Positions 37,152 through 57,315 of a stretch of DNA of 64,000 nucleotides are shown piece by piece. Each line of letters opens with the position of its first letter. The first letter of the stretch is position 1. Source of the stretch: a virus (Duplodnaviria; Caudoviricetes); the IMG/VR virus record IMGVR_UViG_2593339199_000003, positions 41,082 through 105,081 of that record. One strand, given 5' to 3'. Under the pieces are notes generated by a model. The model was given only the letters and a program-made list of their open reading frames with translations, was not told where the DNA came from and did no database searches. The translations under genes were made by a program, and so were the position numbers.

Positions 37152-40100
37152 TTACTTTGTCGGATAATGGAGATGGACGTGATTGTAGTGGTCCGCGCGC
37201 GTGGTGAAGGTGTTCTTCGGATACTTCTTCCGCATCTGATTCAGCAGATCATCGTCCGCATGCAGGATGCCATCGAAGCCTGCCTGGACCGCCAGGTCGA
37301 TTACCATTTCCACCATGTCCCGATCGGCGCTGTTCGTGAAGCGCAGCTTGCCGGCTACCACTTTCATGTCCGGCGTGTCGATATCGACTGCAAAGCCGGT
37401 ATTGTGCCAGCTCAGCGATCCGTCCGGTTTTCGATACGTCGAGGTAACCATGAGCTTCTTGCCGCCGCTTTTCGCCGTGTATACCGCGCCTAGTTGCTGC
37501 AGAAGATCTGCAGATGCTTGGCGGATCAGTGGTGCCTGCATGATCGGCTCATAGAAATTGACACTCGTTACCTTCGTCGTGCTGACCAGCACGCTCTTGG
37601 CTTGCTCAGGCGTCAACGAGTATTGTTTCATCCCGGCCGACCCAGTTGTCGTTGGCACTTCCGCGCTAGTCCCGTTCGTCCCACTCGATGCCTTCGGAGC
37701 GTCCGGAGTCGGCGGCAAAAAATTCGGATCGTGCTTGGCGATCTTGGCCATGATCTGCGCAATCCCGTTGTGCCAGTTCTTGTCGGAGGCATACTTAATG
37801 TTCATGCCAACAAGTGTTGAGCCATTGTAATACTTGCCGCCTGCGGTCAGGTAATTCGTCTTTATCTTATTGGCTGCATAGTAGATGCAATCCTGTGGCG
37901 TCGCAAACGTATAGGCGCCATCATATGGATTGCTATCGACCGCGCCGTAGCCAAAGAGGTTGTTCTTGTCCTTGAAGATCCTGGATGTCCCCCACCCTGT
38001 TTCCCACGCCGCATGCGCTGCGAGGTAAAGTCCGCTCATGACGCGAGCACTTCCCGCTCCGTCCCCTTGTAATGCGAGAGGCGATGGCGCTGAAGGAATG
38101 GAGATCTCAAGTTGCTTAAAGTATTTGCCGAGCCCCGCAAGACCGGTTCCTTCAAAGGCAGCATCGATTGCGTCAGCTGAAATGCCGCTCGGCTGATTGA
38201 GGTCCATTGTGTCAAAGCTGGTGCCGGCAGCGTAGCCAGATCCCCCGCTTGAGTCGCTGCCACCCAATGAGGACGTCAGGTCATCTGAGGTCAGAAGCGT
38301 TCGATCTTCTTCATAGGTTGGCTTCCGATTGAAATCCGCCTCTTGGCGTGCGACTTGTCCCTGCAGCTGCTTGGTCGCTTCGCCGACCTCGAAGTTATAC
38401 ACCTCGGCGGCCTGCGTATCCGCGATCACCTTGTAGCGATGCTTCTCGAAGAAGCTGGACGCAAACTGCGAGAAGTCAACGGAACTGCCGCTGGCCTGCA
38501 TGGAGAGATCGTCATCGGAGGCGATCGGCGCATACTGAGACGTGTCTGCGCCCAGGAATCCGGCGAGAACACCACCGACCACATCGTTAGTCAAGAACCG
38601 CTGCCAGAAGTCTGGAGAGTCGCCGATCACCGAGCCCATATGGCCATTGATGCCTGCAGAGAACTCGATGCCGTCGCGGCGGAGCACCGCAATGATGCAA
38701 GACTTCCGCGTGAACAAGAAGCGCTCGATGAACTCGGATATGCAGGCACAGGCAATCTCGACGACGGCCGTTTCAATCAGATAGGCTGCAATGCCAACCG
38801 GTCCGCCAAAAATAGCGAGCGCACCCGTGGCCATCTCCCATCCTCGCTTCCCCCAGCGGCCGGCCTTGGCCGTAACCTTAAAGCCAGTCGCCATCATTTT
38901 GCTTGCACCTGTCTTGAGTTTCGCGAGTTTGGCAGCGTCTATTTTATTGTAGCCCTTGAAACGCTTGTCGTACAAAGCTTCGTACAAGTTATCAAACAGC
39001 GCCTGAGCGTCTTTTTCGGTGAAATTCTCGATCTTAGACGCCATATCCTTGAGTATTCCGCTTTTTGTCCAGCGATTCTTCATTTCATCTGTAACAGGAT
39101 CGTAACGCCTTACTTCTTTGGTTACAGGATCAATCTCGACACGATAGTTCTTCGTTTCGATCGTTCTTGGTTTCGAAAGTTCCTCTCCTGCCGCCGTGGT
39201 CCATTCCATCAGCTTGGAGCCCACTTTGGTCGCATCGAACTTCCCTTTCATCGCTTCATAGCGCCGCTTGACCACGGACCAGATCGCATTCATGACTGGG
39301 AATGCGCCTTTATAGCCCATGTTCCGGAGGACAGCACGCAGCGTATACGACATAATCATGTAGGCGGCTGTGTGCGTCAGTCCCTGCAGCATCGTCATGA
39401 CATGACGATCGCTGTTGACGACGACGGCATCCGGCTTGATCATCGTGATGTAACCCGTCTCAAAATTCAGCAGATGGTTCACTTCACGAACCTCGATTGG
39501 CCCGCTCATATTATTGAACGTATCGTTGAAATAGCAGATGTCGTAAGGCTTCACGCTTGGATCACCCATGACCGTCAGATAGCCGTCGTACATTTGCTTC
39601 ACGTAATCCCGGAGGCCAGCTGCGGCGATCTTGATGGCCGTCCATTCATCGAAGTACCATTTCGGCAGCTTGTTCAGGAAGTGTCCGATGATCGGGATAT
39701 TCTCGATCAGCCGGATACCCTGCGCATTCAGCTGCGTATCAATCTGCACTGTCCGCTGCATCTCCGGCCAAATGTTCGTGTCTACGTAGATCGCCTGCGT
39801 CGTATCGAGGTTGCCCTCGTTGCTGTAGACGCCGACCGCGACCGTGTACATGTTCTCCGTCGTGGCGATGATCTGATTCTCGACGATGGACGTCCAGCTG
39901 TCATAGATGTGATACTGCCGGAATGGCTTCGACACGGCTTGGATATCATAGCTCGCCAGGTTCGTATCCTGCATGCTTTTCCCGCCGGCGACGTCGTAGG
40001 CATACGCAATCGGGAAGTATGGCTTGCCCATGAAAATCGTGTTGCGGAAGTCGTAGGGATGAACCGCGACTATGAAGTCCTCGCCCACCGCAGCGCAAAT

Positions 40101-43100
40101 GTTCAGCACGTCCCATACCGTCTTGTCGTACAGGCTAATGTTGATACCGTCCTCGTCGCCCTTGCCGATTCCGAAGAAATTGCCGAGCTTGTTCCAGAAG
40201 CTGTTCTCCTGGAAGCGCAGCAGACCGGTCGTCTTGTAAATGTTCTGCGTGATCTCATTGCGCTGCCGATCCTCAAAGGCGCCGTTGAAATTGATCGCAA
40301 GGTGACTGACTGGCGGCCCCGGCATGCCGAAGTGCATGATGCCGAGTGAGTGCTGCTGGTAATCCGCATTGCTGAACTGCGTCTTGAGGTCCCCCCAGAA
40401 GCCGGTGTGGTCCGTCAGGATCTCATCGAGGATCTCAGTCGGTTCCTTCTTGCTGAACACCCAGCCGCGGGTCGTATCGCCCGGAGAGGCTTTCAGTTTG
40501 TGCGTCAACTCGATGCCGTCGTCCTGGCAGACGGCTGTGATTGTTTCGCCGTTGTTTTGCAGCTGCGTGATGACGCCGTTCATCATCGTCGGCATGTTGA
40601 TGGCGTTGGATCCATACCCCATTCGGAAGTGAACGCGGGCGCCGGTGCGCAAATAGATCGAATTGTACCAGTTCGGATTACGACCGCGGCGCGCCTTCTC
40701 TGCTTCACGCGCGAGCGAAGCGGGATTGAACATGAGCTGCACGATATCCCAGCCGTTCGTGTTCGTCAGGTCAAAGCTTTTAGCCGCGTCATCCAGCGAA
40801 CCGAAGACGTTCGACATCTCGAGCACCAGCGTGCTGGAGGCTGTCTTTCGGCTGTTCGTATACATGATATCCATGACAGCCCGGTAATTGAAGTAGTTGT
40901 CGGACATCTTGGTCGCCGCTACGAATTGCCCCTCATCAATGAAGAACAGCAGGAACGTCGGGAACGCCCTCACCAGCCGGCCGCGGCGGTCGTACTTGCG
41001 CATATCATGAAAGCTCTCGCGGAAGGTCACGTCCATATCGGCGTAATCTTCCTCCGTCAGGTTGCTCTCCTGGAACTGCGCTGTGTCACTCGTGGCGCTT
41101 GCCGTTTTGTAGTCGGCCACCGGCAGCGTACTGTATTTCTCCGTGAGCTGCGCTTCGGTCCACCTGCCGATCTTGTCCACCTTGCTGAGCACTGTCTTGA
41201 TCAGATTGACGATCAAGTACGGCATCTTCTTGTTGCTGTTCAGCAGTAGATTGTATTCCCGCTCGTAGCCGAGATACATGGCGATCGCGCCGACCCAGAT
41301 AGCCTTTTGCTTCTGTGTGCTCGTCAGGCCGAACGTCGTATAGATGTTGTCTCCGACCAGATTGACGCCGGCGACAATATCCAGGTAATGCTGCATCAGT
41401 TTACATCCTTGCTCAACGTTGTACTCGATGTTGCGTGCAAGGCTGTTCGGATCCCCCATGAGCGGGCTGACGCGCATGACGCCGATGAATGATGCCTCCC
41501 GGATGAAGTTCTCATCCTTGAAGTAGCGCAGGTCATGCATCTGTAGGATCGGCACAGACGCTGTGGTCACTTCGATATTGCCGAGCTCTTTATTCGCTCC
41601 GGGCCCGACCGTGTAGAACTGGCGCATCTGCGGATCAAACGTTTTGGCCAGCGCCAGCATCAGCACTTGATCCACGCGAGAGACGGTATTGTCGGACTGC
41701 GCGTTGGCCACGTCCTGCGATTTCTTTCGAATCAGCGTCTCGATGTCTTGAACGGACAAGTTTACGGTATCGACTGAGCTCGGTGTTTGCGTGGACGCGA
41801 CGGGCGACGGCGTGGTCTGCTGCTTCGCTGCAATGTCATCCGTGACTACTTGGCCAGGCTCGACGCTTCCCGGCACGACCGAGGCCGATCCATTCATGGA
41901 GTCCCGCCACTCCGATGGCGTCGTCGAGTTGGCGTTCATGTACTGATCGAGTTCTTCCCCATAATCGATCGGGTCATTGTAGATCAGGAAGAAGTCAGGA
42001 TCGACGTAGACGCCATTGTTTAGATTCGGGATTACGAAGCCGGCATCCGCCACCTCTTTGTACGTCGGCAATTCGAGGTCTGGATAGAGCTCGACATTCT
42101 TCATGAGTTCCTTGACCTTTGATTCGTAGATCGCCCGCTTCTGGAAGTCTTGGTCGCTCGTCCAGTCGGCGAGGCCGGCAAACTGCAGCCAGTCCCGTGA
42201 AGCAGGATCATCAAACGGATTCCACCAGGCGTAGTTACTGAGCTCGAACGGGATCGTCTTGTTATTCGCCGAATCGTAAAGCATCTGCGTTTCTTCCAGG
42301 CGCTTGGCTGCCCGGTTGAAAGCGGAGAGCGTCAGCGTGATTTCATGCACGCCGGGCTGCCCTTCAACCGTGCTGGACACCATGTCTTCAATGACGACAT
42401 ACGTACAGCCAAACAATCGGGTAAGCTGATGGTCGAACTCGATAAAGCCATTCGACAGCACCGAATGATATTCCCGATTCAGATACGTAGAACGGCGAAC
42501 CAGATTCTCCAAGCTTCCAAGGGCTTCTGGATCATCGGCTTTGAAACGCGCAACATATACGGCATCTTGCGATCCTAAGTATTGATGGGTTGGCGATTCA
42601 TGCATCTGAATCTGGGTCGGCGTGATGATATTCTGGTAGCCGACGCTCAGCTCCTGCAGGTACAGGCCGGGGATATCCCAATTGTCCATTCGAAACTCAT
42701 TCGTCTGCAGCAACTTATAAATATCATCGCCGTACATCTTGTCGATCTCGCTGTCAAACATGACCTGCTTGGCTTCATCATAGAAGCCGTGTGGCACGCC
42801 ATCCTCATCCTTGCCTAATGGCTTTGGCACTGGGAAGATACCGCCGATCCAGGTCCAGTCTTCTTCATCGAAGCCGGCCTTGTCGGTTTTGTCATCCATC
42901 CATAGCTTGATCAGCTTGTCGCGCTTGTCCTTCCAGTCCTTCATCGCTTCCAGGTCTTCTTCTGCGGCAATACGAAACATGTATTCATTATGCAGGTCGA
43001 TCTGCAGTGGCTCATAGAAGACAAGGTTTCGTTTTGGATTCGGCTCCAAGCTGCGACGATAATGCCAGCGAAACAGCGGCCAGTTGAACATCTCCTCGTA

Positions 43101-43550
43101 GCTGCGCTCCGACTGGTCGAAGATGTAGGAGAACGGATTGAACGCGTACATCTGAACCTGCGCCATGAGGCAACCGGGGAAGCCATCAACCGTCTGCACA
43201 GAGATCGATGAGATTGTGACAGCCTCTACCTGATACGTGTCGTTCAGGAGCATGTTCGTGACAGGCAGGAATGGACACTTGCGGACCTGTGCCAGAAGCG
43301 GACGCAGCTCATTGTTGATGCTCTGCAGGCCCGGGAAGAACAGATTCAGTTCAATAATATGGTCAAAGTGCCCGGCCGATTTCACCATACTGCTACGGCT
43401 GCGGAGCACATTGACCTTTTCGTTTTTCATTCGCTTGGTTACGGTGATTGCGGTCGGGGGCACATAATACTGTGAATCCCCGATGCGCAAATGATGATCC
43501 CGTAACGCCCCATAAAGGGCGTCACGGTCATCCACTCCGATCGTAGACAT
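37152..43550 (-). CDS. Baseplate hub/tail-associated lysin (2132 aa): degenerate SLT fold, gp27/gpD-like hub, GH73 glucosaminidase, M15 peptidase
   Basis: Hub motifs GARVHFRMGYG...NGVI...CQDDG and VMGDPSVKPYD...VREVNH. GH73 AAWETGWG...NNLFG...YASD..W. M15 VTSTYR...SWH..GFAVDI...HVH. Confidence 0.85.
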   Translation of the reverse strand: MSTIGVDDRDALYGALRDHHLRIGDSQYYVPPTAITVTKRMKNEKVNVLRSRSSMVKSAGHFDHIIELNLFFPGLQSINNELRPLLAQVRKCPFLPVTNMLLNDTYQVEAVTISSISVQTVDGFPGCLMAQVQMYAFNPFSYIFDQSERSYEEMFNWPLFRWHYRRSLEPNPKRNLVFYEPLQIDLHNEYMFRIAAEEDLEAMKDWKDKRDKLIKLWMDDKTDKAGFDEEDWTWIGGIFPVPKPLGKDEDGVPHGFYDEAKQVMFDSEIDKMYGDDIYKLLQTNEFRMDNWDIPGLYLQELSVGYQNIITPTQIQMHESPTHQYLGSQDAVYVARFKADDPEALGSLENLVRRSTYLNREYHSVLSNGFIEFDHQLTRLFGCTYVVIEDMVSSTVEGQPGVHEITLTLSAFNRAAKRLEETQMLYDSANNKTIPFELSNYAWWNPFDDPASRDWLQFAGLADWTSDQDFQKRAIYESKVKELMKNVELYPDLELPTYKEVADAGFVIPNLNNGVYVDPDFFLIYNDPIDYGEELDQYMNANSTTPSEWRDSMNGSASVVPGSVEPGQVVTDDIAAKQQTTPSPVASTQTPSSVDTVNLSVQDIETLIRKKSQDVANAQSDNTVSRVDQVLMLALAKTFDPQMRQFYTVGPGANKELGNIEVTTASVPILQMHDLRYFKDENFIREASFIGVMRVSPLMGDPNSLARNIEYNVEQGCKLMQHYLDIVAGVNLVGDNIYTTFGLTSTQKQKAIWVGAIAMYLGYEREYNLLLNSNKKMPYLIVNLIKTVLSKVDKIGRWTEAQLTEKYSTLPVADYKTASATSDTAQFQESNLTEEDYADMDVTFRESFHDMRKYDRRGRLVRAFPTFLLFFIDEGQFVAATKMSDNYFNYRAVMDIMYTNSRKTASSTLVLEMSNVFGSLDDAAKSFDLTNTNGWDIVQLMFNPASLAREAEKARRGRNPNWYNSIYLRTGARVHFRMGYGSNAINMPTMMNGVITQLQNNGETITAVCQDDGIELTHKLKASPGDTTRGWVFSKKEPTEILDEILTDHTGFWGDLKTQFSNADYQQHSLGIMHFGMPGPPVSHLAINFNGAFEDRQRNEITQNIYKTTGLLRFQENSFWNKLGNFFGIGKGDEDGINISLYDKTVWDVLNICAAVGEDFIVAVHPYDFRNTIFMGKPYFPIAYAYDVAGGKSMQDTNLASYDIQAVSKPFRQYHIYDSWTSIVENQIIATTENMYTVAVGVYSNEGNLDTTQAIYVDTNIWPEMQRTVQIDTQLNAQGIRLIENIPIIGHFLNKLPKWYFDEWTAIKIAAAGLRDYVKQMYDGYLTVMGDPSVKPYDICYFNDTFNNMSGPIEVREVNHLLNFETGYITMIKPDAVVVNSDRHVMTMLQGLTHTAAYMIMSYTLRAVLRNMGYKGAFPVMNAIWSVVKRRYEAMKGKFDATKVGSKLMEWTTAAGEELSKPRTIETKNYRVEIDPVTKEVRRYDPVTDEMKNRWTKSGILKDMASKIENFTEKDAQALFDNLYEALYDKRFKGYNKIDAAKLAKLKTGASKMMATGFKVTAKAGRWGKRGWEMATGALAIFGGPVGIAAYLIETAVVEIACACISEFIERFLFTRKSCIIAVLRRDGIEFSAGINGHMGSVIGDSPDFWQRFLTNDVVGGVLAGFLGADTSQYAPIASDDDLSMQASGSSVDFSQFASSFFEKHRYKVIADTQAAEVYNFEVGEATKQLQGQVARQEADFNRKPTYEEDRTLLTSDDLTSSLGGSDSSGGSGYAAGTSFDTMDLNQPSGISADAIDAAFEGTGLAGLGKYFKQLEISIPSAPSPLALQGDGAGSARVMSGLYLAAHAAWETGWGTSRIFKDKNNLFGYGAVDSNPYDGAYTFATPQDCIYYAANKIKTNYLTAGGKYYNGSTLVGMNIKYASDKNWHNGIAQIMAKIAKHDPNFLPPTPDAPKASSGTNGTSAEVPTTTGSAGMKQYSLTPEQAKSVLVSTTKVTSVNFYEPIMQAPLIRQASADLLQQLGAVYTAKSGGKKLMVTSTYRKPDGSLSWHNTGFAVDIDTPDMKVVAGKLRFTNSADRDMVEMVIDLAVQAGFDGILHADDDLLNQMRKKYPKNTFTTRADHYNHVHLHYPTK

Positions 43551-43563
43551 AGGCTCTCATCTC

Positions 43564-46500
43564 CTACGAGTATTGCTGGACTTTATCTCGATACCAGATA
43601 CGATTCAGCCTGTTGGCGTTATCGGATTGGTTCACGGACATGTTAATCTTCCCGCCGTTATACCCGGATCGCTGCATAGCTTGTCCGAGCATCGGGCCAA
43701 AGTTCTGCGACCCGCTCCCCTGCGCGGAAATCTTAATATTAGCGCCGGAGTTGCCGGCATCAATCGGGGCCATTGCGGGAGCTGGTGTTCCGCCATATAG
43801 GGCTGCTGCATCTGCTCTCGCTTCAGTTTCAGACTCGGGATTGTAAGGCATTACAGGATCTTTATCATTAAATGTATTGTACCCCATTATACCTGCAAGC
43901 GCTAGACCTCCGATGAGCGCCGCCTTTTTATTTCTGGGCCCGTTCTTACCGTTAAAGAACTTGTCCATCGCCCCCGAAATCTTCTCGTAGGCCTTCGGGC
44001 CGAGCATCCCGCCGGTGCCGTCTTCGATCATCTCGGCAATGGTGCCGGCCGGTCCCTCAAGACGCTTGGTCATCGGCGAGGAGCTAAATGGCTCCAGCGG
44101 ATTCACCTTGCGGTATTCGGGCGTCAGGCTCGGTTGTTGCGGCCTGTCGATCGTCATTCCGCCTTCGCTACGCAGGATGTCTTGCAACGGATTCAGGAAT
44201 GGATTCGCCGTCGTGGCGTTCGGGTTGCGCCCCATAATCGTGTCTACGATTTCCTCCAGGCTGTGATCGCCCAGTCTCATGCCTTGGCTCGTGCCGGCCC
44301 GCAGCTCCGGATTGTCCATCCCCTTCTTCATAACATCGAGCGCGCGGGTTAGGTGCCCCATCGCCAGTTTCAGGTTGTCTCCGAATTGACCATTGAAGTA
44401 TTTGTTGTCCACCTCGATGGCCTGCTTCGTATTTCCTCGCTCAATGGCACTCAATAGATCGGCAGCGCCTGACTTCGTAAATAACCCCTGGCCGGTGCCG
44501 TGCTTGGAGGAGATCGTTAAGTCTTGCTCCAGGCCTTGCCCCAGTTTATAGATCTGCCCTTTGACTTCGGGGCTATCGGCGTAGAAGGTGTCCGCAACCT
44601 GACGCATCCGATAGTTGAGGTCCGATGCGCGGCCGATGAACTCCTTACCGGATTTCGCCATGATCTCCGGCAGCTGATTGGCCTCAAACCGATCCACGGA
44701 CTCAAGGCCTTTCTCTTTTCCGCTTCGGACATTGTAATCCTCGAAGATGCTTTTCAACGAGAACTCTCGAGAGCTATCAAGCTTGAGTTCGCCCTCGTTA
44801 AGCGCCTGCTCATACGTCATCGAGTTATTAAGCGCATTCTGGTAAGCCTGCTCGTGACGGGCCGCTCTTACCTCCCGCTGCTCAGCATGATTACGGGCCA
44901 GCTCCTCTTGCACGCCCTGATCGTGAATTGCGACGATGTGGTTGTAGTCACCGTCTGAGTCTTCCTTCAGCAAGGATGCAAGCAAAGACGTCGTATTATG
45001 GAAGCCGGCAGGCACTGATGGATCCATCTTAATTTTGACAGACTGGATGGCGTTCTCCGTAAAGGTTGGAAAGCGCAGGTCCGGCGCATAGAAATCTTTC
45101 TGAAGCGCTGGATTATGAAGTGCGCCTTCATTGCCGCCGAGCAGGTGCTCATAAATCCCCATCGTCTTCGCTTCGTTCGGGTTAATGAAGACCGTTTCAC
45201 CATCGAGCCGCATCGATTCTTCGATCGGCATGACCTTTGCAAGGCCGCTGGAGGATGTCGGCATATTCACCTTCAGTACGCTGTTACCCGTTTGATCACT
45301 GGATGCCGTCACGGCAGATACGGTTCCTGCGAAGTATTTGCCCAGGCTTCGATTCAAGCCCTGCATGGCCTTCACTTGCGCTGATTCGCCGTCCGCCTTG
45401 GTTACCGCCTCGGCGCGCCGATAGATGTCTGCAATGTGGCGCCGCATATCACGCAGCCAGATTTCTTCCCCTTTGCCGTCCGTCTTCGTGAACGGGATGA
45501 AGACCCGATCCATTTTACGGCCTTCCACTTCCGGCAGTATGGCTTCTTTCTGCCCGTTCACATGAATGTTCGGGAGCTCCATCCAGAAGCCATGGTAGTC
45601 ATTTTCACCGACCAGCTTCCGGACGTGTTCGTCATCCAGAATCGTGCGTGAGATCGTCGTGAGGTTCGTGTCCAACGTCGGCAGCGCATGGAAGTCGTGG
45701 AGGCGCAGCGTCCGGTTTTCGAAGTCAGGATCGAATCCTGGCCCTTCAACAGCACCGCGCAAAGCATTGACCATGCCGATCGCTTCCTGCAGCCGGCCGG
45801 TTTCTTTCGACTGATCGACAAGGTAACGGAACATGTGCTCCCTGGTCTTGTCGAGCCCTTTGACTTGCAGCATGCCTAGTTCACGGAAGCCGTACTTGAC
45901 GCCCTTCACATCGCCGCCTTCTTTATAGGCCACGTCGATCAAATTGCCGTTGTCATCCACATTGTACTTAAGGACGGCTCGGCGCTGCTCATCAACGACG
46001 GTCGAATAGTTTTGCACCTGCGCGATCCGCATAGCCTGCACACCTGTGATGTAGCCGGCGCTATTGGATTCGGCAAGCCCAAGCCCGAATCGATCGTTCA
46101 ACTTTCCGTAGAGCCGACCGAAGTTTCGGTAGTCCATACGCTTGTATTTCGCACTCACGTCATCGAACAGCAGCTCGCCATTCTTGTACGATGCATTCAC
46201 GCCGATCCGGCCCTGGTTGATCATCCGCATCGCTTCTTGGATATCTGCCTCATTAAGCACGTTCTCTTTTATCGCGTTCTGCATGGTGTACATCAGCTTG
46301 TTGGCCTGACCGCGCAGCGCGCCACCAAGGTCACCGTGCTTGCCGATATTCGGGTTGTAGACGACACCGACGTTTTCTTCGCCGAACAGCTCCTTCAAGA
46401 ACTCGGATCCGTAGCCGTATTGGCCGTTGTGCATGTTGCCGCCGATCGTGCCCTTCTCGATATCGAGGTAGACCTTGTTGGCCTGCTCGGTATATTCAAT

Positions 46501-49500
46501 GGCAAAGGCGTTGTCGGTTGATCTTGCCGATGCGATCCGGCCGGCATACTTCTGATCATAGAATACGGACTGCCGTTGCCCGTCAACGATGCGGGTACCC
46601 AACCGGTCTCCCGGGCTGATCACCATGTCTCGCCGGAGCTGCCCGTCAGCATCCAGGTACTTGCCATCCCACTTGATCTCATCGCCTCGGTAATACTTGT
46701 AGTTCTTCGTCTGCAGGCGATTAACGAGATCCTTGTTAAAGATCATCTGCTGTTCGTAGACGTTCGGCTTCCGGAGTACATTAACGCTTCCGTCCGCCCG
46801 TAGTATCCCTTCTTCTGTCAAGATACGACGTATGTTATCGTCGCCCTGCGCCTGCGCGATCAAGTCATCTACCCGGCGGGTAACATCTGCCTGGTTGGCC
46901 ATGACAGTATTCACGTAGACCTCCGGCTTGTACGGATAGAGCTTACTGTGCTGCCGCTGAACAGCCGTTGATACCATGTGGTTGGTCGAAGCCACGCCTT
47001 CTGCCTCTTTCAAGGAAGCTTCCAAGTCCTTGTCGATCCGGTAGCTGTTCATCGCCTGAACGGAGTTGTCTCGATTCTGTACCGTGAAATGGCCGTAGGC
47101 GAATAGATTTCGAGCATCTATGGAGCCGATGCCGCCCCTTGCTACGACGTCTGCTTTAGCCGAGGAGTAGAAGCCCCGTCCGAAGCCGTTCTTCTCCAGC
47201 CACTCCGGCATGTCGCGACGGATCATAAACTTGGCTTCGTCATGCAGGTCATCCAGTTTGACGAATGGAATCAACTGTTTCTTGCCGGCATTCAGAATCA
47301 CGTCCGTATTTCGGAAGCTCCGGTCGGTCAACGTGCCGTCTTCATAATACTGCTGAATCATCGCGGCTGCCGGATACTTGAGGCCCTGCTTGAGCAAGTC
47401 GGCTTCTGTATTCGTGACGAGCAGGTTCTCGTTAAAGTCCCGCTTCACGCCGGAGAGCTCGCTGACAAAGTTGTTCATGAGTCGGCGGGCCGAGGCCGTG
47501 GCCTCCGATAGCTCCCCATCCTTCAGCTGCTGCGCCATCGTATTGATGTTCCATTCCGATCTGTGATCGAGCAGGCGCGGATCCGCCAGCATATGCCCCA
47601 TCTTCTCCACGGTGGAAATCTCACTATTCACGCCGTTGACGCGGATGATATCGCGTGTGGCATTGAAATGTCGGTTGCCGTAGACCAGCGTGCCCTGCTG
47701 ATTAATCAGCGGTACCGTGAACTCGAACGCTTTCGGATGCGCCTCCGATGCGCCGCCGGCCATATGGCGAAGCACGCTTGCACTGTCATCTGGATGGAAC
47801 ATTGTGATGAAGGCTTGGGTCGCCTCCGGATTCATCGAGAGCGCCATGTTCAAGCTTGGATTCATCTTCTTCAACGTGCCCATCATACCTTCGATGGCCT
47901 GGCGATTATTCGGATTCATCCCCGTGAACTTGTGCTGACGATCCAGCTTAGCGAACATATCGCCGATATCTGTCCCTGGCCCCGGGATAAAGCCGTTATT
48001 TAAGAGGTAGCCGCGCATACCTTGCGTCTGCTTGATGGCCGATTTCACCAGTTGCTGGCCCGCTTGTTTGGAAATCCTCTCCACGGATTCCCGGCGCCCC
48101 AGCGACTCCTCTGTAATGCGGCGAATCGTCAAGTGCTGTTGCTCCATCAGATCAAGTGCCAGCTGCTCAATCGATGCCGGGATCGTCAGCTTGCGATCAT
48201 GAATCCCGGTGATAGCGCCCTGCACATAATCGTCGTCGATGATGCCAGATCCCTTCAGCGAGGAAAGCAGGATCTTAAAGCGCTCGGCCCGCTCCACAGC
48301 TTTCTCTGTCTCTGCCAAGTCTCCTGTCCCTTTGAAAACATAGCTTCGGAATGAATTGATGGCATTGTTGGCATTCTGTAGCGACACGCTGACGCTCTTG
48401 CCGGTTAGGCGGTCACGGAACTGGAAGCCATTCTGCTCGTAAGGAAGCGAGGCACGAACGGTTTTATGCTGGCCGGCCGATTCATTCACGCGCTCATGAA
48501 AGAGTGACCAGGCAATGTTTTTCTGCTCGGCTTCCATGCCGGAAGCGTCGATGGCCTCGATGGCGCCTTGGTACAGCGAGTGCTCGGACATGAGGCGCGG
48601 GAGCATCTTCCAGAATGCCTTCTCCTCGTCCGGATTGTAGACGAAGGACTTGCTCGTGCCATCCCATAGGGAATTGAAGTTCATCATGCCCTTCATTTCA
48701 TCGCGGCTGATACGCTGCTTGAGCAGGCGGCCGATGATCTTTTCGCGTGCCTGATCGTATTGCTCTGGCGTCCAGGAGCGCATGAACTGCCCGTTCTTCA
48801 TCGTCAGCTCGTCCAGCTTGCGGGAGGCCTCTGCCTCGATTGCGCTCCAGCGGCCGGAAGTAAACTTATTGTAGACTGCGGCATTGGCGTACATCCGCTT
48901 AGCGGCATCGAAGCCGGCGGTCGATTTCTTGTCGAGACTGAACAAGCTTTCGTACCGGCGGCGCCCGAGGTCAGACTCACGCAAGTGCTGGATCTGCTTG
49001 CGCATCTTCTTACTAATGTTGCTCATCGGCGTGAAGCTGCGATGATAGAAGTCGGCAATCTCATAGGCGGCATTCTCGCCCTCACGGACAACAAACGAAC
49101 GGAGCTGCGGATTGTCCTGGTTCACGAACTCAATCGCCCATTTCGGGACACCACCAGAAGACAAATCGCGAACGCCAGCCACCCGGTAGAAGGACTCGGC
49201 ATTGATGACGTTCTGGTTAAAGCCCGGACGGAAGATCTTATAGGAGCCGTCTTCCGTAAGCTCCGCTTGATAATCCAGCTGGCTGCCCTTGTAGTTGCGC
49301 ACGCCGCGCGTGGCAAACAGCAGATCGCTCGTCGTGAGCGGCTTATTGCTGTGCATGAGATAAGGCGTTCTCTGCCCCAGCTGCCTTGGCTTGTAGTCGG
49401 CCTTGACCTCCGTGGATCCAAGCAGATCGTCAACGTAATTCCAGGTGTTCGCGACAAGTCCGCCGACCCCATTCATGCCGGTATCGAAGCTTGCGGAGTG

Positions 49501-50613
49501 GGAGCCTGCTGTGCTCATGCCGAGCGTGCGCCGCCATTCGGCAAGCGACCATGGGCCCTCCTCGAACGGAAGCGACGATGGACGGCCGTGCTGCTCGTGA
49601 AGTTTGATCGGATTACGCGCCACAGACTGCATCACGCGGTAATAGTCCATGTGATTCTGCGGCAACACCATTTCCTTTCCGGTGATGGATGAGAACCGGC
49701 GCATCCGCTCCAAGTCGAAGCTGTCGCCATTCATCGTGACGAAGTAGCTGTTCTTGTGCTTGCCGACGAACGCATTATACTCATCAATGGCACTCGCATA
49801 ATCTGCACCGTGCTTCACCAGATTCTTAATTCCATCTCGCATATGACGCAGATACTGCGTCTGGTTGCGCGTGATCTCATCGGTCAGAATGGTTTTGCCG
49901 CTCAAAACGGAGTTGATAGCCGAGTTATGCATCACTTCAGCCCCAAACGTAGCAGCACTGATTCCGTTACCGCCGATCGAGGAATACCGTATCAAGTCGA
50001 CGACTGTCCGCTGTTCGCTTGGATTCAGCAGTGCAAATTGCCCTATCTGCACCTTACGGATCAGCTTGTTAAGCTCACCTTGCATGTGTTTGTTTGGAGC
50101 AACCAGCTTATTGAATCGATGCGTCTTGGATTCGCCCGTGTATTGACCCCCGCGGTAATTAATGCCATTGGCTGAGATCTCTGAGATGAAGAAGTTCTTC
50201 GAGTCCGTATCTCCGAGCGTCTCGATGTCGAGGCCGAAGAACCGGCCAGGACCACCGCCTCCCCCCTTGGCGCGTCGTGCAAAATCGCGAAACGACTCGA
50301 TATGACGCTGCGCATCAATCGCGAACCCGCTATAAGGGTCAGCGCTGCCGACCGGGTTCAGGAAGCTCCAGATGTTGGTGCCGCCCATATTGATTACGCC
50401 GCTCTGGGTAGGCAGCGCTGGCATCTTATTGATGGCATCATTCAGCCGGATCAGAGATGGGTTGACGCCAGACCGCTCCGTGGCGGGCCGGGTTATCGGG
50501 TTGTATGCCGACAGCATGACCCGCTTATGGCGATCGGCCGGCACATATTCCAGGCCGGCTCCGATCCCCGCGTTAACATTTGAATAGAGTTGATCGTAAT
50601 TTGTTGTCGCCAT
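43564..50613 (-). CDS. Putative virion-associated single-chain two-barrel RNA polymerase with an N-terminal DEDDh exonuclease (2349 aa), in the tape-measure position
   Basis: DEDDh residues D129/E131/D300/H372/D377. Beta-like motifs YEQQMIFN, LDADG..PGDRLG, NK..EKGT, VVYNP, GVKYGFRE. Beta'-like RFPT..AIQ and DSDGD (1885-1889). C-terminal hydrophobic segment. Confidence 0.8.
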   Translation of the reverse strand: MATTNYDQLYSNVNAGIGAGLEYVPADRHKRVMLSAYNPITRPATERSGVNPSLIRLNDAINKMPALPTQSGVINMGGTNIWSFLNPVGSADPYSGFAIDAQRHIESFRDFARRAKGGGGGPGRFFGLDIETLGDTDSKNFFISEISANGINYRGGQYTGESKTHRFNKLVAPNKHMQGELNKLIRKVQIGQFALLNPSEQRTVVDLIRYSSIGGNGISAATFGAEVMHNSAINSVLSGKTILTDEITRNQTQYLRHMRDGIKNLVKHGADYASAIDEYNAFVGKHKNSYFVTMNGDSFDLERMRRFSSITGKEMVLPQNHMDYYRVMQSVARNPIKLHEQHGRPSSLPFEEGPWSLAEWRRTLGMSTAGSHSASFDTGMNGVGGLVANTWNYVDDLLGSTEVKADYKPRQLGQRTPYLMHSNKPLTTSDLLFATRGVRNYKGSQLDYQAELTEDGSYKIFRPGFNQNVINAESFYRVAGVRDLSSGGVPKWAIEFVNQDNPQLRSFVVREGENAAYEIADFYHRSFTPMSNISKKMRKQIQHLRESDLGRRRYESLFSLDKKSTAGFDAAKRMYANAAVYNKFTSGRWSAIEAEASRKLDELTMKNGQFMRSWTPEQYDQAREKIIGRLLKQRISRDEMKGMMNFNSLWDGTSKSFVYNPDEEKAFWKMLPRLMSEHSLYQGAIEAIDASGMEAEQKNIAWSLFHERVNESAGQHKTVRASLPYEQNGFQFRDRLTGKSVSVSLQNANNAINSFRSYVFKGTGDLAETEKAVERAERFKILLSSLKGSGIIDDDYVQGAITGIHDRKLTIPASIEQLALDLMEQQHLTIRRITEESLGRRESVERISKQAGQQLVKSAIKQTQGMRGYLLNNGFIPGPGTDIGDMFAKLDRQHKFTGMNPNNRQAIEGMMGTLKKMNPSLNMALSMNPEATQAFITMFHPDDSASVLRHMAGGASEAHPKAFEFTVPLINQQGTLVYGNRHFNATRDIIRVNGVNSEISTVEKMGHMLADPRLLDHRSEWNINTMAQQLKDGELSEATASARRLMNNFVSELSGVKRDFNENLLVTNTEADLLKQGLKYPAAAMIQQYYEDGTLTDRSFRNTDVILNAGKKQLIPFVKLDDLHDEAKFMIRRDMPEWLEKNGFGRGFYSSAKADVVARGGIGSIDARNLFAYGHFTVQNRDNSVQAMNSYRIDKDLEASLKEAEGVASTNHMVSTAVQRQHSKLYPYKPEVYVNTVMANQADVTRRVDDLIAQAQGDDNIRRILTEEGILRADGSVNVLRKPNVYEQQMIFNKDLVNRLQTKNYKYYRGDEIKWDGKYLDADGQLRRDMVISPGDRLGTRIVDGQRQSVFYDQKYAGRIASARSTDNAFAIEYTEQANKVYLDIEKGTIGGNMHNGQYGYGSEFLKELFGEENVGVVYNPNIGKHGDLGGALRGQANKLMYTMQNAIKENVLNEADIQEAMRMINQGRIGVNASYKNGELLFDDVSAKYKRMDYRNFGRLYGKLNDRFGLGLAESNSAGYITGVQAMRIAQVQNYSTVVDEQRRAVLKYNVDDNGNLIDVAYKEGGDVKGVKYGFRELGMLQVKGLDKTREHMFRYLVDQSKETGRLQEAIGMVNALRGAVEGPGFDPDFENRTLRLHDFHALPTLDTNLTTISRTILDDEHVRKLVGENDYHGFWMELPNIHVNGQKEAILPEVEGRKMDRVFIPFTKTDGKGEEIWLRDMRRHIADIYRRAEAVTKADGESAQVKAMQGLNRSLGKYFAGTVSAVTASSDQTGNSVLKVNMPTSSSGLAKVMPIEESMRLDGETVFINPNEAKTMGIYEHLLGGNEGALHNPALQKDFYAPDLRFPTFTENAIQSVKIKMDPSVPAGFHNTTSLLASLLKEDSDGDYNHIVAIHDQGVQEELARNHAEQREVRAARHEQAYQNALNNSMTYEQALNEGELKLDSSREFSLKSIFEDYNVRSGKEKGLESVDRFEANQLPEIMAKSGKEFIGRASDLNYRMRQVADTFYADSPEVKGQIYKLGQGLEQDLTISSKHGTGQGLFTKSGAADLLSAIERGNTKQAIEVDNKYFNGQFGDNLKLAMGHLTRALDVMKKGMDNPELRAGTSQGMRLGDHSLEEIVDTIMGRNPNATTANPFLNPLQDILRSEGGMTIDRPQQPSLTPEYRKVNPLEPFSSSPMTKRLEGPAGTIAEMIEDGTGGMLGPKAYEKISGAMDKFFNGKNGPRNKKAALIGGLALAGIMGYNTFNDKDPVMPYNPESETEARADAAALYGGTPAPAMAPIDAGNSGANIKISAQGSGSQNFGPMLGQAMQRSGYNGGKINMSVNQSDNANRLNRIWYRDKVQQYS
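43842..43855. promoter_or_regulatory. Intragenic copy of the recurrent palindromic motif (TGTAAGGCATTACA)
   Basis: 13/14 match to TGTAATGCATTACA; in an AT-rich patch with a minus-strand TATAAT at 43891-43886, about 290 bp upstream of the hub gene. Confidence 0.55.
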
Positions 50614-50628: not shown

Positions 50629-53600
50629 TTACATCAAAGATCCCATATTGTTGCGCAGATAGTTATCAATTTCGCCGCTGCGATCTTGCTCGTACTGCAC
50701 GCCAACTCGTGTCGCAGCCCCGCTTGAAGGCGTCACGGTCACGTTGACGTTCTTCAGTCCTTGTCCTTGGAGCACGTCTTGGATATTGCGCTCCATTCGC
50801 TTGTAGCTGAAATCCGATTGCTGGTACATATTGTTGCCCTGGTTCGTCAGGTTCGGAGTCATGCGCGAGGCTTCCACGTCGTCCGGCCAGAAATTGAAGT
50901 CACTCAGATCCAGTTTCTGATTCTGCACGACCTTGAGCTTGATGCTCTCAAGATCGAAGTCCGGCCGCCAACCGGCCCAGTTTGCATCCGGCAGCGCGTA
51001 TTTCTGGAAGTAGTCTTCAAGTGGCGGCACGTATTCGTCCCCATAATCCCAAAGTGCTTTATAGATGCGCCTTTCATTTTCAGGCACAAGCTGCAGGATA
51101 CGTTCCCGGTCCCGCTCCGGTGCATTCACGAAGTCATCGAAGAACCACTTATCCTTGGTCGGAAATGCTCGGGCCACCTTCATCCGATCGTCGTATGGAT
51201 CGATCGCATATAAGGTTTCTTCACTTTGCTCTTTATATTGTAATGCCTGACGTACAATATCGGGAAGCATTATTTCGTCCCAGCCGCCCTCTTGCATGTC
51301 ATTCAGTTCTTGATTGATTGCTTTGCGGCGATCGACCCATCCATCCGGCTGTTTTAAATAAAGCTGTCGCTTTTCTTCGTTAAGCTGTTGGCGCCGCTCC
51401 TTTGTGTTCGCCTGCTTCTGCTCGATGTCATTGATGAAACCATCGACATCGTAGCCCGACGCTTCAGCTTCCCGCTTTGTCGCTTCATAGAGTCCGGAGT
51501 ATTTCATATACTTCAAGAGGTCGAAGTATTCATTGATCTCGTTCTCTTTGCGCCGGCGCTCCGGGATCCACGTCTCGCCGTTATGCGTGTATTCATAATG
51601 CCTTGCATACCCGTGGCCAAGGCCGCCAACCAGCGCGCCTATAATGGCGCCCGCTGCGACCCGCTTGCTGCCGCCGCCCCCGAGTACGCCCATAATGACC
51701 CCGCCGGTGATTCCGCCGCGCATCATCGATTCCAGTGTGTCGTGCCGGAAGGCCGACTGAAAGCCTGGAATTAGATAGTCGCTCGTCAGGAAGTTGCGCC
51801 AGGTCGCCCAGTCCTTGCCGTAAACTTGATCCCGCTCGTATTCTTCGAGTGCAGTGCGCACCTGCAGGAACTTCGTATTAAGCGGCGATTCGTAGTGGGC
51901 GATCGACTCCCACCGTGTGCCCTCTGCAATCTCGTCCGGCGTGAAGCGGGCGAAGACTGATGGTGCGGAGAAGTCCGTCAGGTTCTCCTTCATGAGGCCA
52001 CGGCGCAGGATGTCCTGGTTGATATTCTTGAGTCCATCGAAGACAACAGCGCGCATCGTGCCGTACTGGTCATCGGAGATCCGCTGGCTCTGGTCCGCAT
52101 TGATCCCCACCGTTACCTTATCCCCTACCCCGATGTACGAGTCGAGCACCCCGTGTGCTGCCGGCTTGTAATCCATACCGGCCAGCCGGATCGGCGTATC
52201 GCCGTATTCCTTTGTAAGGAAGGTGTAGTCGTCGAGCATCTTGGTGACCGTCACTTGCTCTTTTTCCAGTTCGGCGTATTTAAAGCGATACTCCGTGAAG
52301 TCGTATTTCTGTTTTCGCTTGGCCACCTGACGCTTGATCTCAGCGGCCTGCTTTCGGACCTCCGGATCTGTTTCATTGTCGACCACATAGTCCCGCCAAA
52401 ACTTGTACTCGTCGCTCCACGGCGCCACGTCGGCCAAGATCTTGAACTTGTCGAAGCTGCCGTAGCGTCCGGTCTGATCGGGATGAAGCGGGTTCAGCTT
52501 CTCATAGGCATCGCCAGGCAGCCGGTAATCCCCGTGGGCCACTTTTGTATAGGGATCGCCTACCTGGAAGTTGATGAAATAATCGCCCCCCGGCAACCAG
52601 TCCGGCATCGTGTTGCGAATCGGGTTGTATTCGTCCAGCTGGCCATCATCTGCGCGAATGAAACGACGCCCGATCTCGGAGATCGGTCCGCCAACAGATC
52701 CGAGGTTCATGCCCCAAAACCGGTTCGACAGGTTGTTCGCGGCATCCGCCTTCTGGATGACCATGTTACCGGTGTACGGGTCGTCGCCGGCCACTTCATC
52801 AGCAATCCACTTGTAGACGCCGAGCGGCTCCGCCCAGTTCTGCGCGGATTCCTGCAGCCGCCAGTTGATGCTGCTCGGATCCTTCATCTCCCGCAGCTTA
52901 CGGTTTCGAACTTCATTTCTGTAGGCGTACTCCTCCGCATGCATTGCGCGCGGCTTTGTCTCGACCATAGGCTCGTCGGTTCCGGCCATAGCAAACATCC
53001 GATCCATGCTGTAGCCTTCTTTGGCGATGTTGGCTGGCACGTACATGGCCTGGCCAGAGGTAATGTCCTGCGCCACGTAGGCGCCCGTTTGATTGCCCTG
53101 CTCATCCAGCTCGCTCGAGACGAAATACTTCACCGGTGCGGCAACGGCACCCGGATTCACATCACCGGTTCCGGCCCATTTGCCGCTATATGGCGCGCCG
53201 TAGCTGGTTGGCCCTGCATAGACGACATCCTCGGTCCGGCCTGCCGGCGACACCCGTGTGACGACCGGTTCAGTCGGACGATTGCCGAGCCCTTCATTCT
53301 CCTGCTCGATGAGTACCGGATCACCCCAGTAATCCGGATGCATGCGGCGGCTTGGTTTCACGAGCTGCCCGATTGTTGCATTGCCGATATCGCCAAAGAA
53401 CATTGTGTTCGGATTGAACAAGGAGCCGGTCATCATGTAAGGCCGGTCATAGTAATGCTTCTGCTCCCAATAGTATTCATTTCCGTCCAGCATGCGCTTG
53501 AATATCCCGAGTGGATTCTCGAAGGTCGGAAGGATATTCATCTCACCATAACGTTCTTCGCCGGTGAGGCTTGTATTGGAATACTCCCAGTCGCTCATCG

Positions 53601-56478: not shown

Positions 56479-56514
56479 GACCTTCACCTACTCGTCTGCG
56501 TATTTATACCAAAA

Positions 56515-57297: not shown

Positions 57298-57315
57298 CCT
57301 GCATCAGTCCTTATA

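What the first reader, a model, noticed from the sequence alone, without database searches (positions are those of the whole stretch)
44900..46800. Single-chain two-barrel RNA polymerase hidden in a tape-measure-position gene of a contractile tail
Seen: the 2349-aa protein contains, in the correct order, by-eye equivalents of the cellular RNAP catalytic core. Beta-like: NVYEQQMIFNKDLV (E1287; cf. YNFEDSILVS), YLDADGQLRRDMVISPGDRLGTR (cf. KLDESGIV...VTGGDILVGK), ANKVYLDIEKGTIG (K1380/K1387; cf. GDKMAGRHGNKGVIS), VGVVYNP (cf. VDIVLNP) and GVKYGFRELG (cf. GQRFGEMEV). Beta'-like: LRFPTFTENAIQ (R1847; cf. NRAPTLHRLGIQ) and KEDSDGDY (nt 44961-44947; cf. NADFDGDQ). Known: these residues form the double-psi-beta-barrel active site. 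Single-chain relatives include SPbeta YonO and the crAss-like virion RNAPs, and, as I recall, Thermus siphophage P23-45 has a tape-measure-fused virion RNAP. Inference: this is a virion RNAP carried in the tail lumen of a Bacillota myophage and ejected ahead of the DNA. I know of no characterised example in that setting.
Basis: partly seen in the sequence, partly recalled or inferred. Interest (0 to 1): 0.95.

Follow-up and report, generated by a model that had tools for sequence, protein, structure and literature searches.

The report
Exonuclease-RNA polymerase giant in phage tail operon
A 2349-residue protein encoded among the contractile-tail genes of a large Bacillus/Paenibacillus-type phage-plasmid joins a DNA/RNA-trimming exonuclease to a one-chain version of the cell's RNA polymerase core, so the phage probably brings its own transcription enzyme into the host.

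Summary
The ORF at window 43564-50613 (minus strand, 2349 aa) carries every motif at the stated residues.

- **Conservation:** the proposed catalytic residues are kept across 48 full-length relatives. D1885/D1887/D1889 and R1847/P1849 are each kept in 45 of 48, K1387 in 41 and K1380 in 37.
- **Fold:** an AlphaFold2 model of residues 1100-2215 is confident (pLDDT 83.8, pTM 0.79). Every listed Foldseek PDB match is a beta-type or beta'-type subunit of a multisubunit RNA polymerase.
- **N-terminus:** residues ~100-400 form an intact DEDDh exonuclease.
- **C-terminus:** the last ~140 residues match the C-terminus of 0305phi8-36 gp146, the virion protein called its tape measure.
- **Gene order:** sheath, tube, chaperones, gp145-like giant, this gene, hub. 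This order recurs in Bacillus and Paenibacillus phage-plasmids, in Oceanobacillus and in the isolated phages WH1, Edson and KLEB27-3.

Not shown here: presence in particles, ejection, or activity. The protein also shows no helical ruler part.

It is a new variant of the P23-45 kind of tail-gene virion RNA polymerase. My paper searches found no description of it. This scan has already flagged the same architecture in at least eight other genomes.

The parts
43564..50613 (-). Whole gene, 2349 aa (P0001). It lies 15 nt after the stop of the upstream giant gene and 13 nt before the start of the hub gene.
49414..50316 (-). DEDDh (DnaQ/TREX-like) 3'-5' exonuclease domain, residues ~100-400. Exo I is D129/E131, Exo II is N295/F299/D300, Exo III is H372/D377.
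   Evidence: These residues are invariant in the 26-row alignment A4. In the Foldseek search of the N-terminal model, the best hits are TREX2 (prob 1.00, E 0.018), CRN-4 and ERI1. An Exo I-type motif is present in 44 of 48 relatives.
47314..49413 (-). Residues ~401-1100: confidently folded mixed alpha/beta region of unknown function.
   Evidence: AF2 pLDDT is mostly 80-95. No PDB match reached E <= 0.001. No Pfam or PHROG hit.
44407..47274 (-). Two-barrel RNA polymerase module, residues 1114-2069 (extent of the conserved profile).
   Evidence: Profile search: 59 relatives at E <= 1e-3. AF2 model pLDDT 83.8. Foldseek gives 358 PDB matches at E <= 1e-3, and every listed row is an RNAP beta- or beta'-type chain.
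45874..46764 (-). Beta-like barrel region, residues 1284-1580. It holds E1287, the K1380/K1387 hairpin and R1577/E1578.
   Evidence: Motif positions; conservation. K1380 and K1387 lie on adjacent strands (model 281-284 and 287-291). Best rpoB alignment (not significant).
44929..45273 (-). Beta'-like barrel, residues ~1781-1895, with R1847-x-P1849 and the metal-binding loop.
   Evidence: The order strand, helix, DSDGD loop, strand in the model matches the best rpoC alignment. Sub-threshold Pfam RNA_pol_Rpb1_2 hits fall at this spot in relatives P0024, P0043 and P0051 (E 0.015, 0.0048, 0.00055).
44947..44961 (-). DSDGD, residues 1885-1889: candidate Mg-binding triad.
44434..44673 (-). Candidate bridge helix and trigger-loop-like helical hairpin, residues ~1981-2060. 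The conserved SSKH (K2037/H2038) sits beside a short low-confidence stretch. This assignment is an inference.
   Evidence: Model helices 882-911, 916-938 and 944-959 with low pLDDT at 939-943. K2037 is kept in 39 of 48 and H2038 in 34 of 48.
43567..43992 (-). C-terminal module, residues ~2208-2349, shared with 0305phi8-36 gp146. It includes the only hydrophobic segment of the protein, AALIGGLALAGIMGY (2231-2245, nt 43879-43923).
   Evidence: hhalign probability 83.8%, E 7.9e-6, end to end with the gp146 C-terminus. The family HMM hits gp146 and Moorella phage CDS0031 only here. Hydropathy.
50629..56487 (-). Upstream giant gene, 1952 aa, a homologue of 0305phi8-36 virion protein gp145.
   Evidence: BLASTP E 5e-109 and 7e-65
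37152..43550 (-). Downstream giant gene, 2132 aa: baseplate hub with a glucosaminidase domain (gp147-like).
56515..62875 (-). Two chaperone-position genes (56515-57297 and 57359-57898), a tube paralogue (57879-58685), tail tube genes (58685-59185 and 59254-59982) and the tail sheath (60077-62875).
   Evidence: PHROG hits, plus synteny with 0305phi8-36, ME3 and WH1

Best explanation
The gene encodes a multi-domain protein of the tail module of a 0305phi8-36-like contractile-tailed jumbo phage or phage-plasmid of Bacillota. Its parts, in order:
- an N-terminal DEDDh 3'-5' exonuclease
- a ~700-residue region of unknown function
- a single-chain two-barrel RNA polymerase, with the beta-like barrel first, then the beta'-like barrel carrying DSDGD, then bridge-helix and trigger-loop-like helices
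- a short C-terminal module with one Gly-rich hydrophobic helix, shared with the virion protein gp146 of 0305phi8-36

**Shown here:** the domain identities, the conservation of the catalytic residues, the gene order, and the shared C-terminal module.

**Inferred:**
- The C-terminal module fixes the protein in the tail or baseplate during assembly.
- The protein leaves the particle at infection, as tape-measure and ejection proteins do.
- Its polymerase then makes the first phage transcripts without the host enzyme, as P23-45 gp96 does.
- The exonuclease trims a nucleic-acid 3' end, either the incoming DNA end or the transcript.

In some relatives a second, YonO-like polymerase could then take over.
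For: **Fold**
- AF2 of residues 1100-2215 gives pLDDT 83.8 and pTM 0.79.
- Foldseek against the PDB gives 358 matches at E <= 1e-3. All 47 rows listed in ranks 1-50 are second-largest (beta-type) or largest (beta'-type) subunits of multisubunit RNA polymerases. The best are vaccinia 9ex9_B at 3.5e-7 and Taq 4xln_D at 7.9e-7.
- In BFVD the best hits are a 'minor tail protein' (E 9e-22) and a piece of an Acinetobacter phage ME3 protein, followed by giant-virus RNAPs and P23-45 gp64.

**Residues**
- The DxDGD triad, R-x-P and both Lys are kept across 48 relatives.
- Three distant members read ADFDGDQ.
- Pfam RNA_pol_Rpb1_2 matches the site below threshold in 3 of 8 relatives scanned; the target itself gave no such hit.

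**Exonuclease**
- All five DEDDh residues are invariant, and the fold matches TREX2 and CRN-4.

**Tail link**
- Tight operon placement between the gp145 homologue and the hub.
- The same three-gene order in Oceanobacillus, B. thuringiensis plasmid pd, and phages WH1 and KLEB27-3. The homologues in WH1 and KLEB27-3 (269 and 363 bits) are annotated as structural proteins.
- C-terminal homology to gp146, which its GenBank record says was found in virions by mass spectrometry.

**Second RNAP**
- A PF05183 (YonO-like) gene lies on plasmid pd and on the same Oceanobacillus contig.
Against: - No proteomic, structural or enzymatic data exist for any family member. The 'structural protein' labels of WH1 and KLEB27-3 have no stated basis, and no paper on either phage is held.
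- gp146, the one positional equivalent with virion evidence, has no DxDxD and resembles this protein only at the C-terminus.
- The protein is predicted to be globular almost throughout, which is hard to fit folded in a tail-tube lumen and gives no ruler segment.
- TM-scores to solved RNAPs are low (0.1-0.25), because only the cores align.
- Sequence profiles find no solved structure and no similarity to P23-45 gp96 or gp64 or to YonO-like proteins.
- A YonO-like partner was found in only 2 of the 5 elements carrying the family that were searched. It was not found in WH1, KLEB27-3 or the 105-kb fragment holding this window.
Confidence: 0.6

Rival explanations
1. It is a real, active two-barrel RNA polymerase that is not delivered through the tail. 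Either it acts inside the cell after late expression, or it is packed in the head like the N4 or crAss-like virion polymerases.
For: - The protein is predicted to be globular with no ruler part.
- The upstream gp145-like giant directly follows the chaperone genes and has Gly-rich hydrophobic segments, so it could be the true tape measure.
- Virion presence is not shown for any member.
Against: - The gene sits inside the tail operon with 13-15 nt gaps, and this position is kept in every relative examined.
- It shares its C-terminal module with a virion protein in the same slot.
- A polymerase made only with late tail genes has no obvious intracellular task.
Confidence: 0.2
2. The two-barrel module polymerises DNA, or primes replication, rather than transcribing. 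The fused DEDDh exonuclease would then be its proofreader, in the manner of PolD plus an exonuclease.
For: - Fusion of a DEDDh exonuclease to a polymerase is typical of DNA polymerases.
- The Foldseek list for the N-terminal model includes family-B polymerase exonuclease domains at weak scores.
Against: - All listed fold matches of the polymerase module are RNA polymerases; no PolD chain appears among the 47 listed rows.
- The R-x-P ... DxDGD signature and the GxxxRE motif are those of beta' and beta.
- The element has its own dnaE, according to an earlier scan note that I did not check.
Confidence: 0.07
3. The polymerase-like and exonuclease-like parts are inactive relics that now serve only as structural mass of a tail or tape-measure protein.
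For: - Tail-slot proteins of this lineage swap domains freely. gp146 lacks DxDxD, and ME3_36 reads DHDQD.
- The Moorella phage copy is split by a transposase.
Against: Every catalytic residue tested is kept across relatives that share only about 27-28% mean column identity. This is the pattern of an enzyme under selection.
Confidence: 0.05

Closest known systems
Thermus phage P23-45 gp96: tape-measure-fused virion two-barrel RNA polymerase (Chaban et al. 2024, PMC10770324; abstract and sections 6, 11-13 read)
   Same: - A single-chain two-barrel RNAP with a DxDGD loop (DFDGD in gp96), encoded in the tail gene that sits in the tape-measure slot.
- A hydrophobic membrane segment in the same protein.
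- A second, separate two-barrel RNAP in the same genome, in some relatives here.
   Different: - gp96 belongs to a non-contractile siphophage. Its RNAP is at the N-terminus, followed by ~3800 residues of ruler with a metallopeptidase.
- Here the RNAP is in the C-terminal half. There is no ruler or peptidase, an N-terminal DEDDh exonuclease is added, and the tail is contractile.
- There is no profile similarity (hhalign probability 0.5%).
- The best fold matches here are cellular and poxvirus RNAPs; gp64 appears only at E 3.7e-3.
0305phi8-36 gp146, 'hypothetical tape measure protein', and the unnamed BtI1/BwK1 gene in the same slot (Hardies et al. 2007, PMC2147016; passages read)
   Same: - The same slot between the gp145 homologue and the hub.
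- Similar length (2537 aa).
- A homologous C-terminal ~140 residues. This agrees with the paper's remark that only the last 60 residues of gp146 aligned with the BtI1/BwK1 gene.
   Different: - gp146 has no DxDxD, and its only DIETTG-type motif is at residue 1223.
- No other similarity was found.
- 0305phi8-36 keeps its YonO-like RNAP (orf99) as a separate gene.
YonO of SPbeta and PF05183-type phage RNAPs (0305phi8-36 orf99)
   Same: - A single-chain two-barrel RNAP of Bacillota phages.
- The nearest named clusters by language-model features carry PF05183 (score 0.78, a lead only).
   Different: - No Pfam PF05183 hit in this protein and no hhalign similarity.
- YonO-type genes are ~1200 aa, are not in the tail operon, and co-occur with this family on plasmid pd and in Oceanobacillus.
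crAss-like phage phi14:2 gp66 virion RNAP (PDB 6VR4, as cited in PMC10770324)
   Same: A virion-delivered single-chain two-barrel RNAP embedded in a giant multi-domain protein.
   Different: - gp66 belongs to a podophage and is packed in the head.
- crAss-like entries appear only weakly in the fold search (E 1e-4 to 1e-3).
- gp66 has no exonuclease and is not in a tail operon.
NCgl1702 of Corynebacterium glutamicum: a 2169-aa predicted beta::beta' fusion (Ruprich-Robert and Thuriaux 2010, PMC2919709, passages read; it cites Iyer et al. 2003, which is not held)
   Same: Similar size, the same beta-then-beta' order in one chain, and a suspected phage or mobile-element origin.
   Different: I could not fetch the sequence, so homology is untested. 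No tail context or exonuclease is mentioned in the passages read.

Membership tests
Two-barrel (double-psi beta-barrel) RNA polymerase superfamily | DxDxD metal-binding loop in the beta'-type barrel (Rpb1 D479/481/483; list of eight invariant residues in PMC2919709) | tested here: met
   DSDGD at 1885-1889, with each Asp kept in 45 of 48 relatives. It aligns to NADFDGD in the best rpoC alignment (not significant alone).
Two-barrel (double-psi beta-barrel) RNA polymerase superfamily | Invariant Arg and Pro upstream of the loop (Rpb1 R446, P448) | tested here: met
   R1847 and P1849, each kept in 45 of 48, at about the spacing of RAPTLH to NADFDGD (38 versus 35 residues).
Two-barrel (double-psi beta-barrel) RNA polymerase superfamily | Two basic residues in the beta-type barrel (Rpb2 K979, K987) | tested here: inconclusive
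   K1380 (37 of 48) and K1387 (41 of 48) lie on a predicted beta-hairpin. Their equivalence to the beta lysines is by eye, and the spacing is 7 rather than 8.
Two-barrel (double-psi beta-barrel) RNA polymerase superfamily | Fourth acidic residue in the beta-type subunit (Rpb2 D837) | tested here: inconclusive
   E1287 in YEQQ is kept in 41 of 48, but it is Glu rather than Asp and the equivalence is by eye only.
Two-barrel (double-psi beta-barrel) RNA polymerase superfamily | Fold: a beta-type and a beta'-type barrel in one active-site module | tested here: met
   A confident AF2 model. All 47 listed Foldseek PDB rows are RNAP beta-type or beta'-type chains at probability 0.95-1.00. The apposition of the barrels was not inspected, because coordinates and VIA-align were unavailable.
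Two-barrel (double-psi beta-barrel) RNA polymerase superfamily | Template-dependent NTP polymerisation | not testable with these tools
   Needs a purified fragment and an active-site mutant control.
Tape-measure-fused virion RNAP of the P23-45 type | Sequence or profile similarity to gp96 | tested here: not met
   hhalign probability 0.5% to gp96 residues 1-1200 and 0.2% to gp64.
Tape-measure-fused virion RNAP of the P23-45 type | RNAP joined to a long ruler part in the same chain | tested here: not met
   Residues 1-2215 are predicted as compact mixed alpha/beta domains. Only ~140 C-terminal residues remain.
Tape-measure-fused virion RNAP of the P23-45 type | Presence in virions and transcription of the first phage genes | not testable with these tools
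   Only gene position and the shared gp146 C-terminal module bear on this.
Tail tape measure protein | Gene between the tail chaperones and the baseplate hub | tested here: met
   It is the second of two giant genes in that interval. This is the slot assigned to the tape measure in 0305phi8-36.
Tail tape measure protein | Long, mostly helical extended chain whose length sets the tail length | tested here: not met
   The models show many strands and pTM values of 0.74 and 0.79, indicating compact folds. Tail length is unknown.
DEDDh (DnaQ-like) 3'-5' exonucleases | Exo I DxE, Exo II NxxxFD and Exo III HxxxxD motifs, and the RNase H-like fold | tested here: met
   D129, E131, N295, F299, D300, H372 and D377 are invariant in 26 rows. 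Foldseek matches TREX2 at probability 1.00 with E 0.018, and CRN-4 at 0.99. RefSeq names a homologue 'ribonuclease H-like domain-containing protein'.
YonO / PF05183 RdRP-type RNAPs | Match to the Pfam model PF05183 | tested here: not met
   No Pfam hit at E <= 0.1. A six-frame search of the 105-kb record finds none. hhalign to two YonO-like proteins gives probability below 1%.

The most novel reading that the evidence does not exclude
The protein is an all-in-one entry machine of contractile-tailed jumbo phages and phage-plasmids of Bacillota.
- It rides in the tail in place of, or beside, the ruler, held by the gp146-type C-terminal module.
- It is expelled on sheath contraction.
- It inserts its Gly-rich helix in the membrane.
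- Its DEDDh exonuclease resects the entering DNA end to expose a single-stranded template.
- It transcribes the first genes with a sigma-independent one-chain RNA polymerase.
- It then hands over to a YonO-like second polymerase where one is present.

This would make tail-delivered transcription a widespread strategy rather than an oddity of Thermus siphophages. It would also mean that the 'tape measure' of the 0305phi8-36 lineage has been misassigned since 2007.
Probability: 0.3. Interest if true: 0.9.

Novelty: new variant of a known kind. Interest (0 to 1): 0.75.

Why it matters
Only P23-45 and its close relatives are documented to carry an RNA polymerase in a tail gene, and they are siphophages of Thermus.

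A second architecture, unrelated in sequence, would show three things:
- Tail-gene polymerases arose more than once.
- Contractile tails can carry enzymes of more than 250 kDa.
- Large Bacillus/Paenibacillus phage-plasmids may start transcription independently of the host enzyme.

The family spans at least 48 diverged full-length representatives, including three cultured Bacillus phages and several 200-260 kb plasmids.

The exonuclease-polymerase fusion has no described counterpart among RNA polymerases in the papers I could search. It gives a directly testable question, because phages WH1, Edson and KLEB27-3 are in culture.

It also bears on annotation. RefSeq calls these genes 'hypothetical' or 'ribonuclease H-like', and the older literature calls the slot a tape measure.

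Tried and rejected
**Sequence-only searches of the target that gave nothing**
- Pfam gave only one chance-level hit, and PHROGs gave none.
- PDB by phmmer, and by profiles of A2 and A1, gave only chance-level rows.
- tblastn of P0001 against 50,697 phage records gave no match at 1e-5. The later family HMM showed this was a sensitivity miss for WH1, Edson and KLEB27-3.
- The 4-row profile A2 found nothing in the 0305phi8-36, Moorella MTATph1 and ME3 records.

**Comparisons that showed no relation**
- BLASTP to gp146 and to Moorella CDS0027.
- hhalign to P23-45 gp96 and gp64, to ME3_36, and to two YonO-like proteins.
- ME3_36 is linked only by the BFVD fold hit and a DHDQD motif. Its identity with the BFVD entry is my inference from the piece length.

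**Only weak leads**
- The ESM Atlas features search scored 0.78.

**Could not be tested**
- Whether NCgl1702 belongs to this family.
- Whether Supplementary Data 3-4 of Chaban et al. already list this family, because supplements are closed.
- Any residue-level superposition on solved RNAPs.

**Paper searches**
- No paper on WH1 or KLEB27-3 is held.

**Rejected reading**
- A chance DxDxD, rejected on the conservation and the fold.

**Not spent**
- Complex prediction, the look-up of sequencing runs and read laying were not used. None would have settled virion presence.

Full report
**The gene and its motifs.** The window carries, on the minus strand, an unbroken tail operon. The order is sheath (60077-62875), tube genes, two chaperone-position genes, and then three giant genes of 1952, 2349 and 2132 aa, separated by 13-15 nt. 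Baseplate genes follow. The finding concerns the middle giant, 43564-50613 (P0001). DSDGD is the only DxDxD in the protein. About 0.5 would be expected by chance, so the motif alone proves nothing.

**Relatives.**
- Pfam, PHROGs, PDB sequence searches and tblastn against phage records were blank for this protein.
- A word-based search found three relatives of 32-49% identity.
- A profile of the region 1114-2069 (A2), searched against 1.84 billion representatives, found 59 proteins at E <= 1e-3, 45 at <= 1e-10 and 29 at <= 1e-30. Nearly all full-length hits are 2127-2729 aa, with the match at the same relative place.
- I aligned the 48 proteins longer than 1200 aa to the profile; 13 short fragments were left out. 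Counts of kept residues: the three Asp, R1847 and P1849 in 45 of 48 each; E1578 in 45; R1577 in 43; K1387 and E1287 in 41 each; K1380 in 37.
- A DxD[GA]D string stands at the homologous place in 46 of 48 by pattern search. Three distant members read ADFDGDQ.

**Fold.**
- With a 26-row alignment (A3; a 48-row attempt failed), AlphaFold2 modelled residues 1100-2215 at mean pLDDT 83.8 and pTM 0.79.
- Foldseek against the PDB returned 358 matches at E <= 1e-3. All 47 rows shown in ranks 1-50 are chains of multisubunit RNA polymerases. Some are second-largest, beta-type subunits (vaccinia 9ex9_B at 3.5e-7; Pol I). Others are largest, beta'-type subunits (Taq 4xln_D at 7.9e-7).
- TM-scores are low (0.1-0.25), as expected when only the catalytic cores align.
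- In the model, K1380 and K1387 sit on neighbouring strands of a hairpin. DSDGD is a loop between a helix and a strand, as NADFDGD is in beta'.
- Pfam RNA_pol_Rpb1_2 matches the DxDGD region below threshold in 3 of 8 relatives scanned, at E 0.015, 0.0048 and 0.00055.
- I could not inspect coordinates, and the VIA-align libraries were not installed. The mutual position of the barrels therefore rests on the fold matches.

**The rest of the protein.**
- In a second 26-row alignment (A4), D129, E131, N295, F299, D300, H372 and D377 are invariant.
- The model of residues 1-1100 (pLDDT 85.1) is most like TREX2, CRN-4 and ERI1. Probabilities are 0.94-1.00, but E is only 0.018-0.18 for the whole query. 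This is a DEDDh exonuclease.
- Residues ~400-1100 fold confidently but match nothing.
- The only hydrophobic stretch is AALIGGLALAGIMGY at 2231-2245.
- The last ~140 residues align end to end with the C-terminus of 0305phi8-36 gp146 (hhalign probability 83.8%, E 7.9e-6).
- A 25-row family HMM hits gp146 and the Moorella phage fragment CDS0031 only there.

**Context and lineage.**
- The flanking giants are homologues of 0305phi8-36 gp145 (E 5e-109) and of the hub gp147 and the Moorella MTATph1 'endolysin'. The target therefore occupies the slot of gp146.
- The GenBank record calls gp146 a hypothetical tape measure found in virions by mass spectrometry.
- Hardies et al. [quoted passage not shown] They noted that only the last 60 residues aligned with the same-slot gene of BtI1/BwK1 (PMC2147016, passages). 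That is what I see here.
- gp146 itself has no DxDxD.
- The same three-gene order occurs in Oceanobacillus profundus (1950/2267/2060 aa) and on B. thuringiensis plasmid pd, where RefSeq names the gene 'ribonuclease H-like domain-containing protein'.
- It also occurs in phages WH1 (gp095, 269 bits to the family HMM, DHDGD), Edson (94% identical to WH1 gp095) and KLEB27-3 (gp034, 363 bits, DYDGD).
- tblastn finds the protein on 10 plasmid records of 140-260 kb, 8 from Bacillus and 2 from Paenibacillus.
- It was found in 3 of 401 sampled genomes of the class.
- The window's own record is a 105-kb fragment classed as a provirus.

**A second polymerase.** A Pfam PF05183 (YonO-type) gene is present in 0305phi8-36 (orf99), on plasmid pd, and on the same Oceanobacillus contig as the target's homologue. 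It was not found in WH1, KLEB27-3, Moorella MTATph1, ME3 or the window's fragment. Of the five elements that carry the exonuclease-polymerase family, two have both enzymes. This recalls the virion and non-virion pair of P23-45.

**Interpretation.** The enzyme identities are well supported. Delivery through the tail is an inference from operon position, conserved synteny and the gp146-type C-terminal module. The predicted globular build and the lack of a ruler segment argue that this is not a tape measure in the classical sense. The gp145-like protein may be the ruler. It directly follows the chaperone genes and has Gly-rich hydrophobic segments, but I did not test this.

**Comparison with what is known.** The closest documented system is P23-45 gp96 (PMC10770324). 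That protein has its polymerase at the N-terminus of a 5002-residue ruler in a non-contractile phage. No sequence relation to gp96 is detectable. My searches found no paper describing an exonuclease-polymerase fusion in a myophage tail operon. A possible link to the predicted beta::beta' fusion NCgl1702 (PMC2919709) could not be tested, and the supplements of Chaban et al. were closed.

**Earlier notes of this scan.** The notes record the same architecture in at least eight other genomes, and the exonuclease and the three-gene module on this window. I treated them as leads only.

Noticed in passing
window 50629-56487 (-): The 1952-aa gp145 homologue directly follows the chaperone-position genes. 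It has Gly-rich hydrophobic segments at residues 40-54 and 1588-1624. It may be the real tape measure or a membrane-piercing protein.
   Followed up: partly
L001 (Moorella phage MTATph1) 11772-19128: The same-slot gene is split by a transposase gene (CDS0028). CDS0027 (1309 aa) has an LDLETT motif at residue 870, and the 313-aa CDS0031 keeps the C-terminal module (E 4.5e-5 to the family HMM). No DxDxD was found in the pieces.
   Followed up: partly
L002 (0305phi8-36) 11573-19186: gp146, the annotated tape measure, has a DnaQ-type DIETTG motif at residue 1223 and no DxDxD. The slot seems to hold different nucleic-acid enzymes in different lineages.
   Followed up: partly
L006 (Acinetobacter phage ME3) 10473-15284: ME3_36 (1603 aa) lies between a gp145 homologue and the hub and has DHDQD at residue 1217. 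A BFVD entry of ME3, probably this protein, is the third-best fold match (E 5e-11). This hints at a Gram-negative counterpart.
   Followed up: partly
L017 (B. thuringiensis plasmid pd) and G001:C61:85066-85905 (Oceanobacillus): A separate YonO-type (PF05183) RNA polymerase gene of ~1200 aa lies in the same elements that carry the tail-operon polymerase.
   Followed up: partly
window 58685-59982 (-): Two genes match PHROG 9206, which is labelled 'major head protein'. They sit where 0305phi8-36 has its tail tube gp140 and its paralogue, so the PHROG label is probably wrong for them.
   Followed up: no
window 37152-43550 (-): The hub giant has a glucosaminidase domain at residues 1841-1937 and a strongly hydrophobic stretch at 1574-1605.
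   Followed up: no
window 10371-24170 (-): Two further giant ORFs of 1744 and 2851 aa lie downstream of the baseplate genes. I did not examine them.
   Followed up: no
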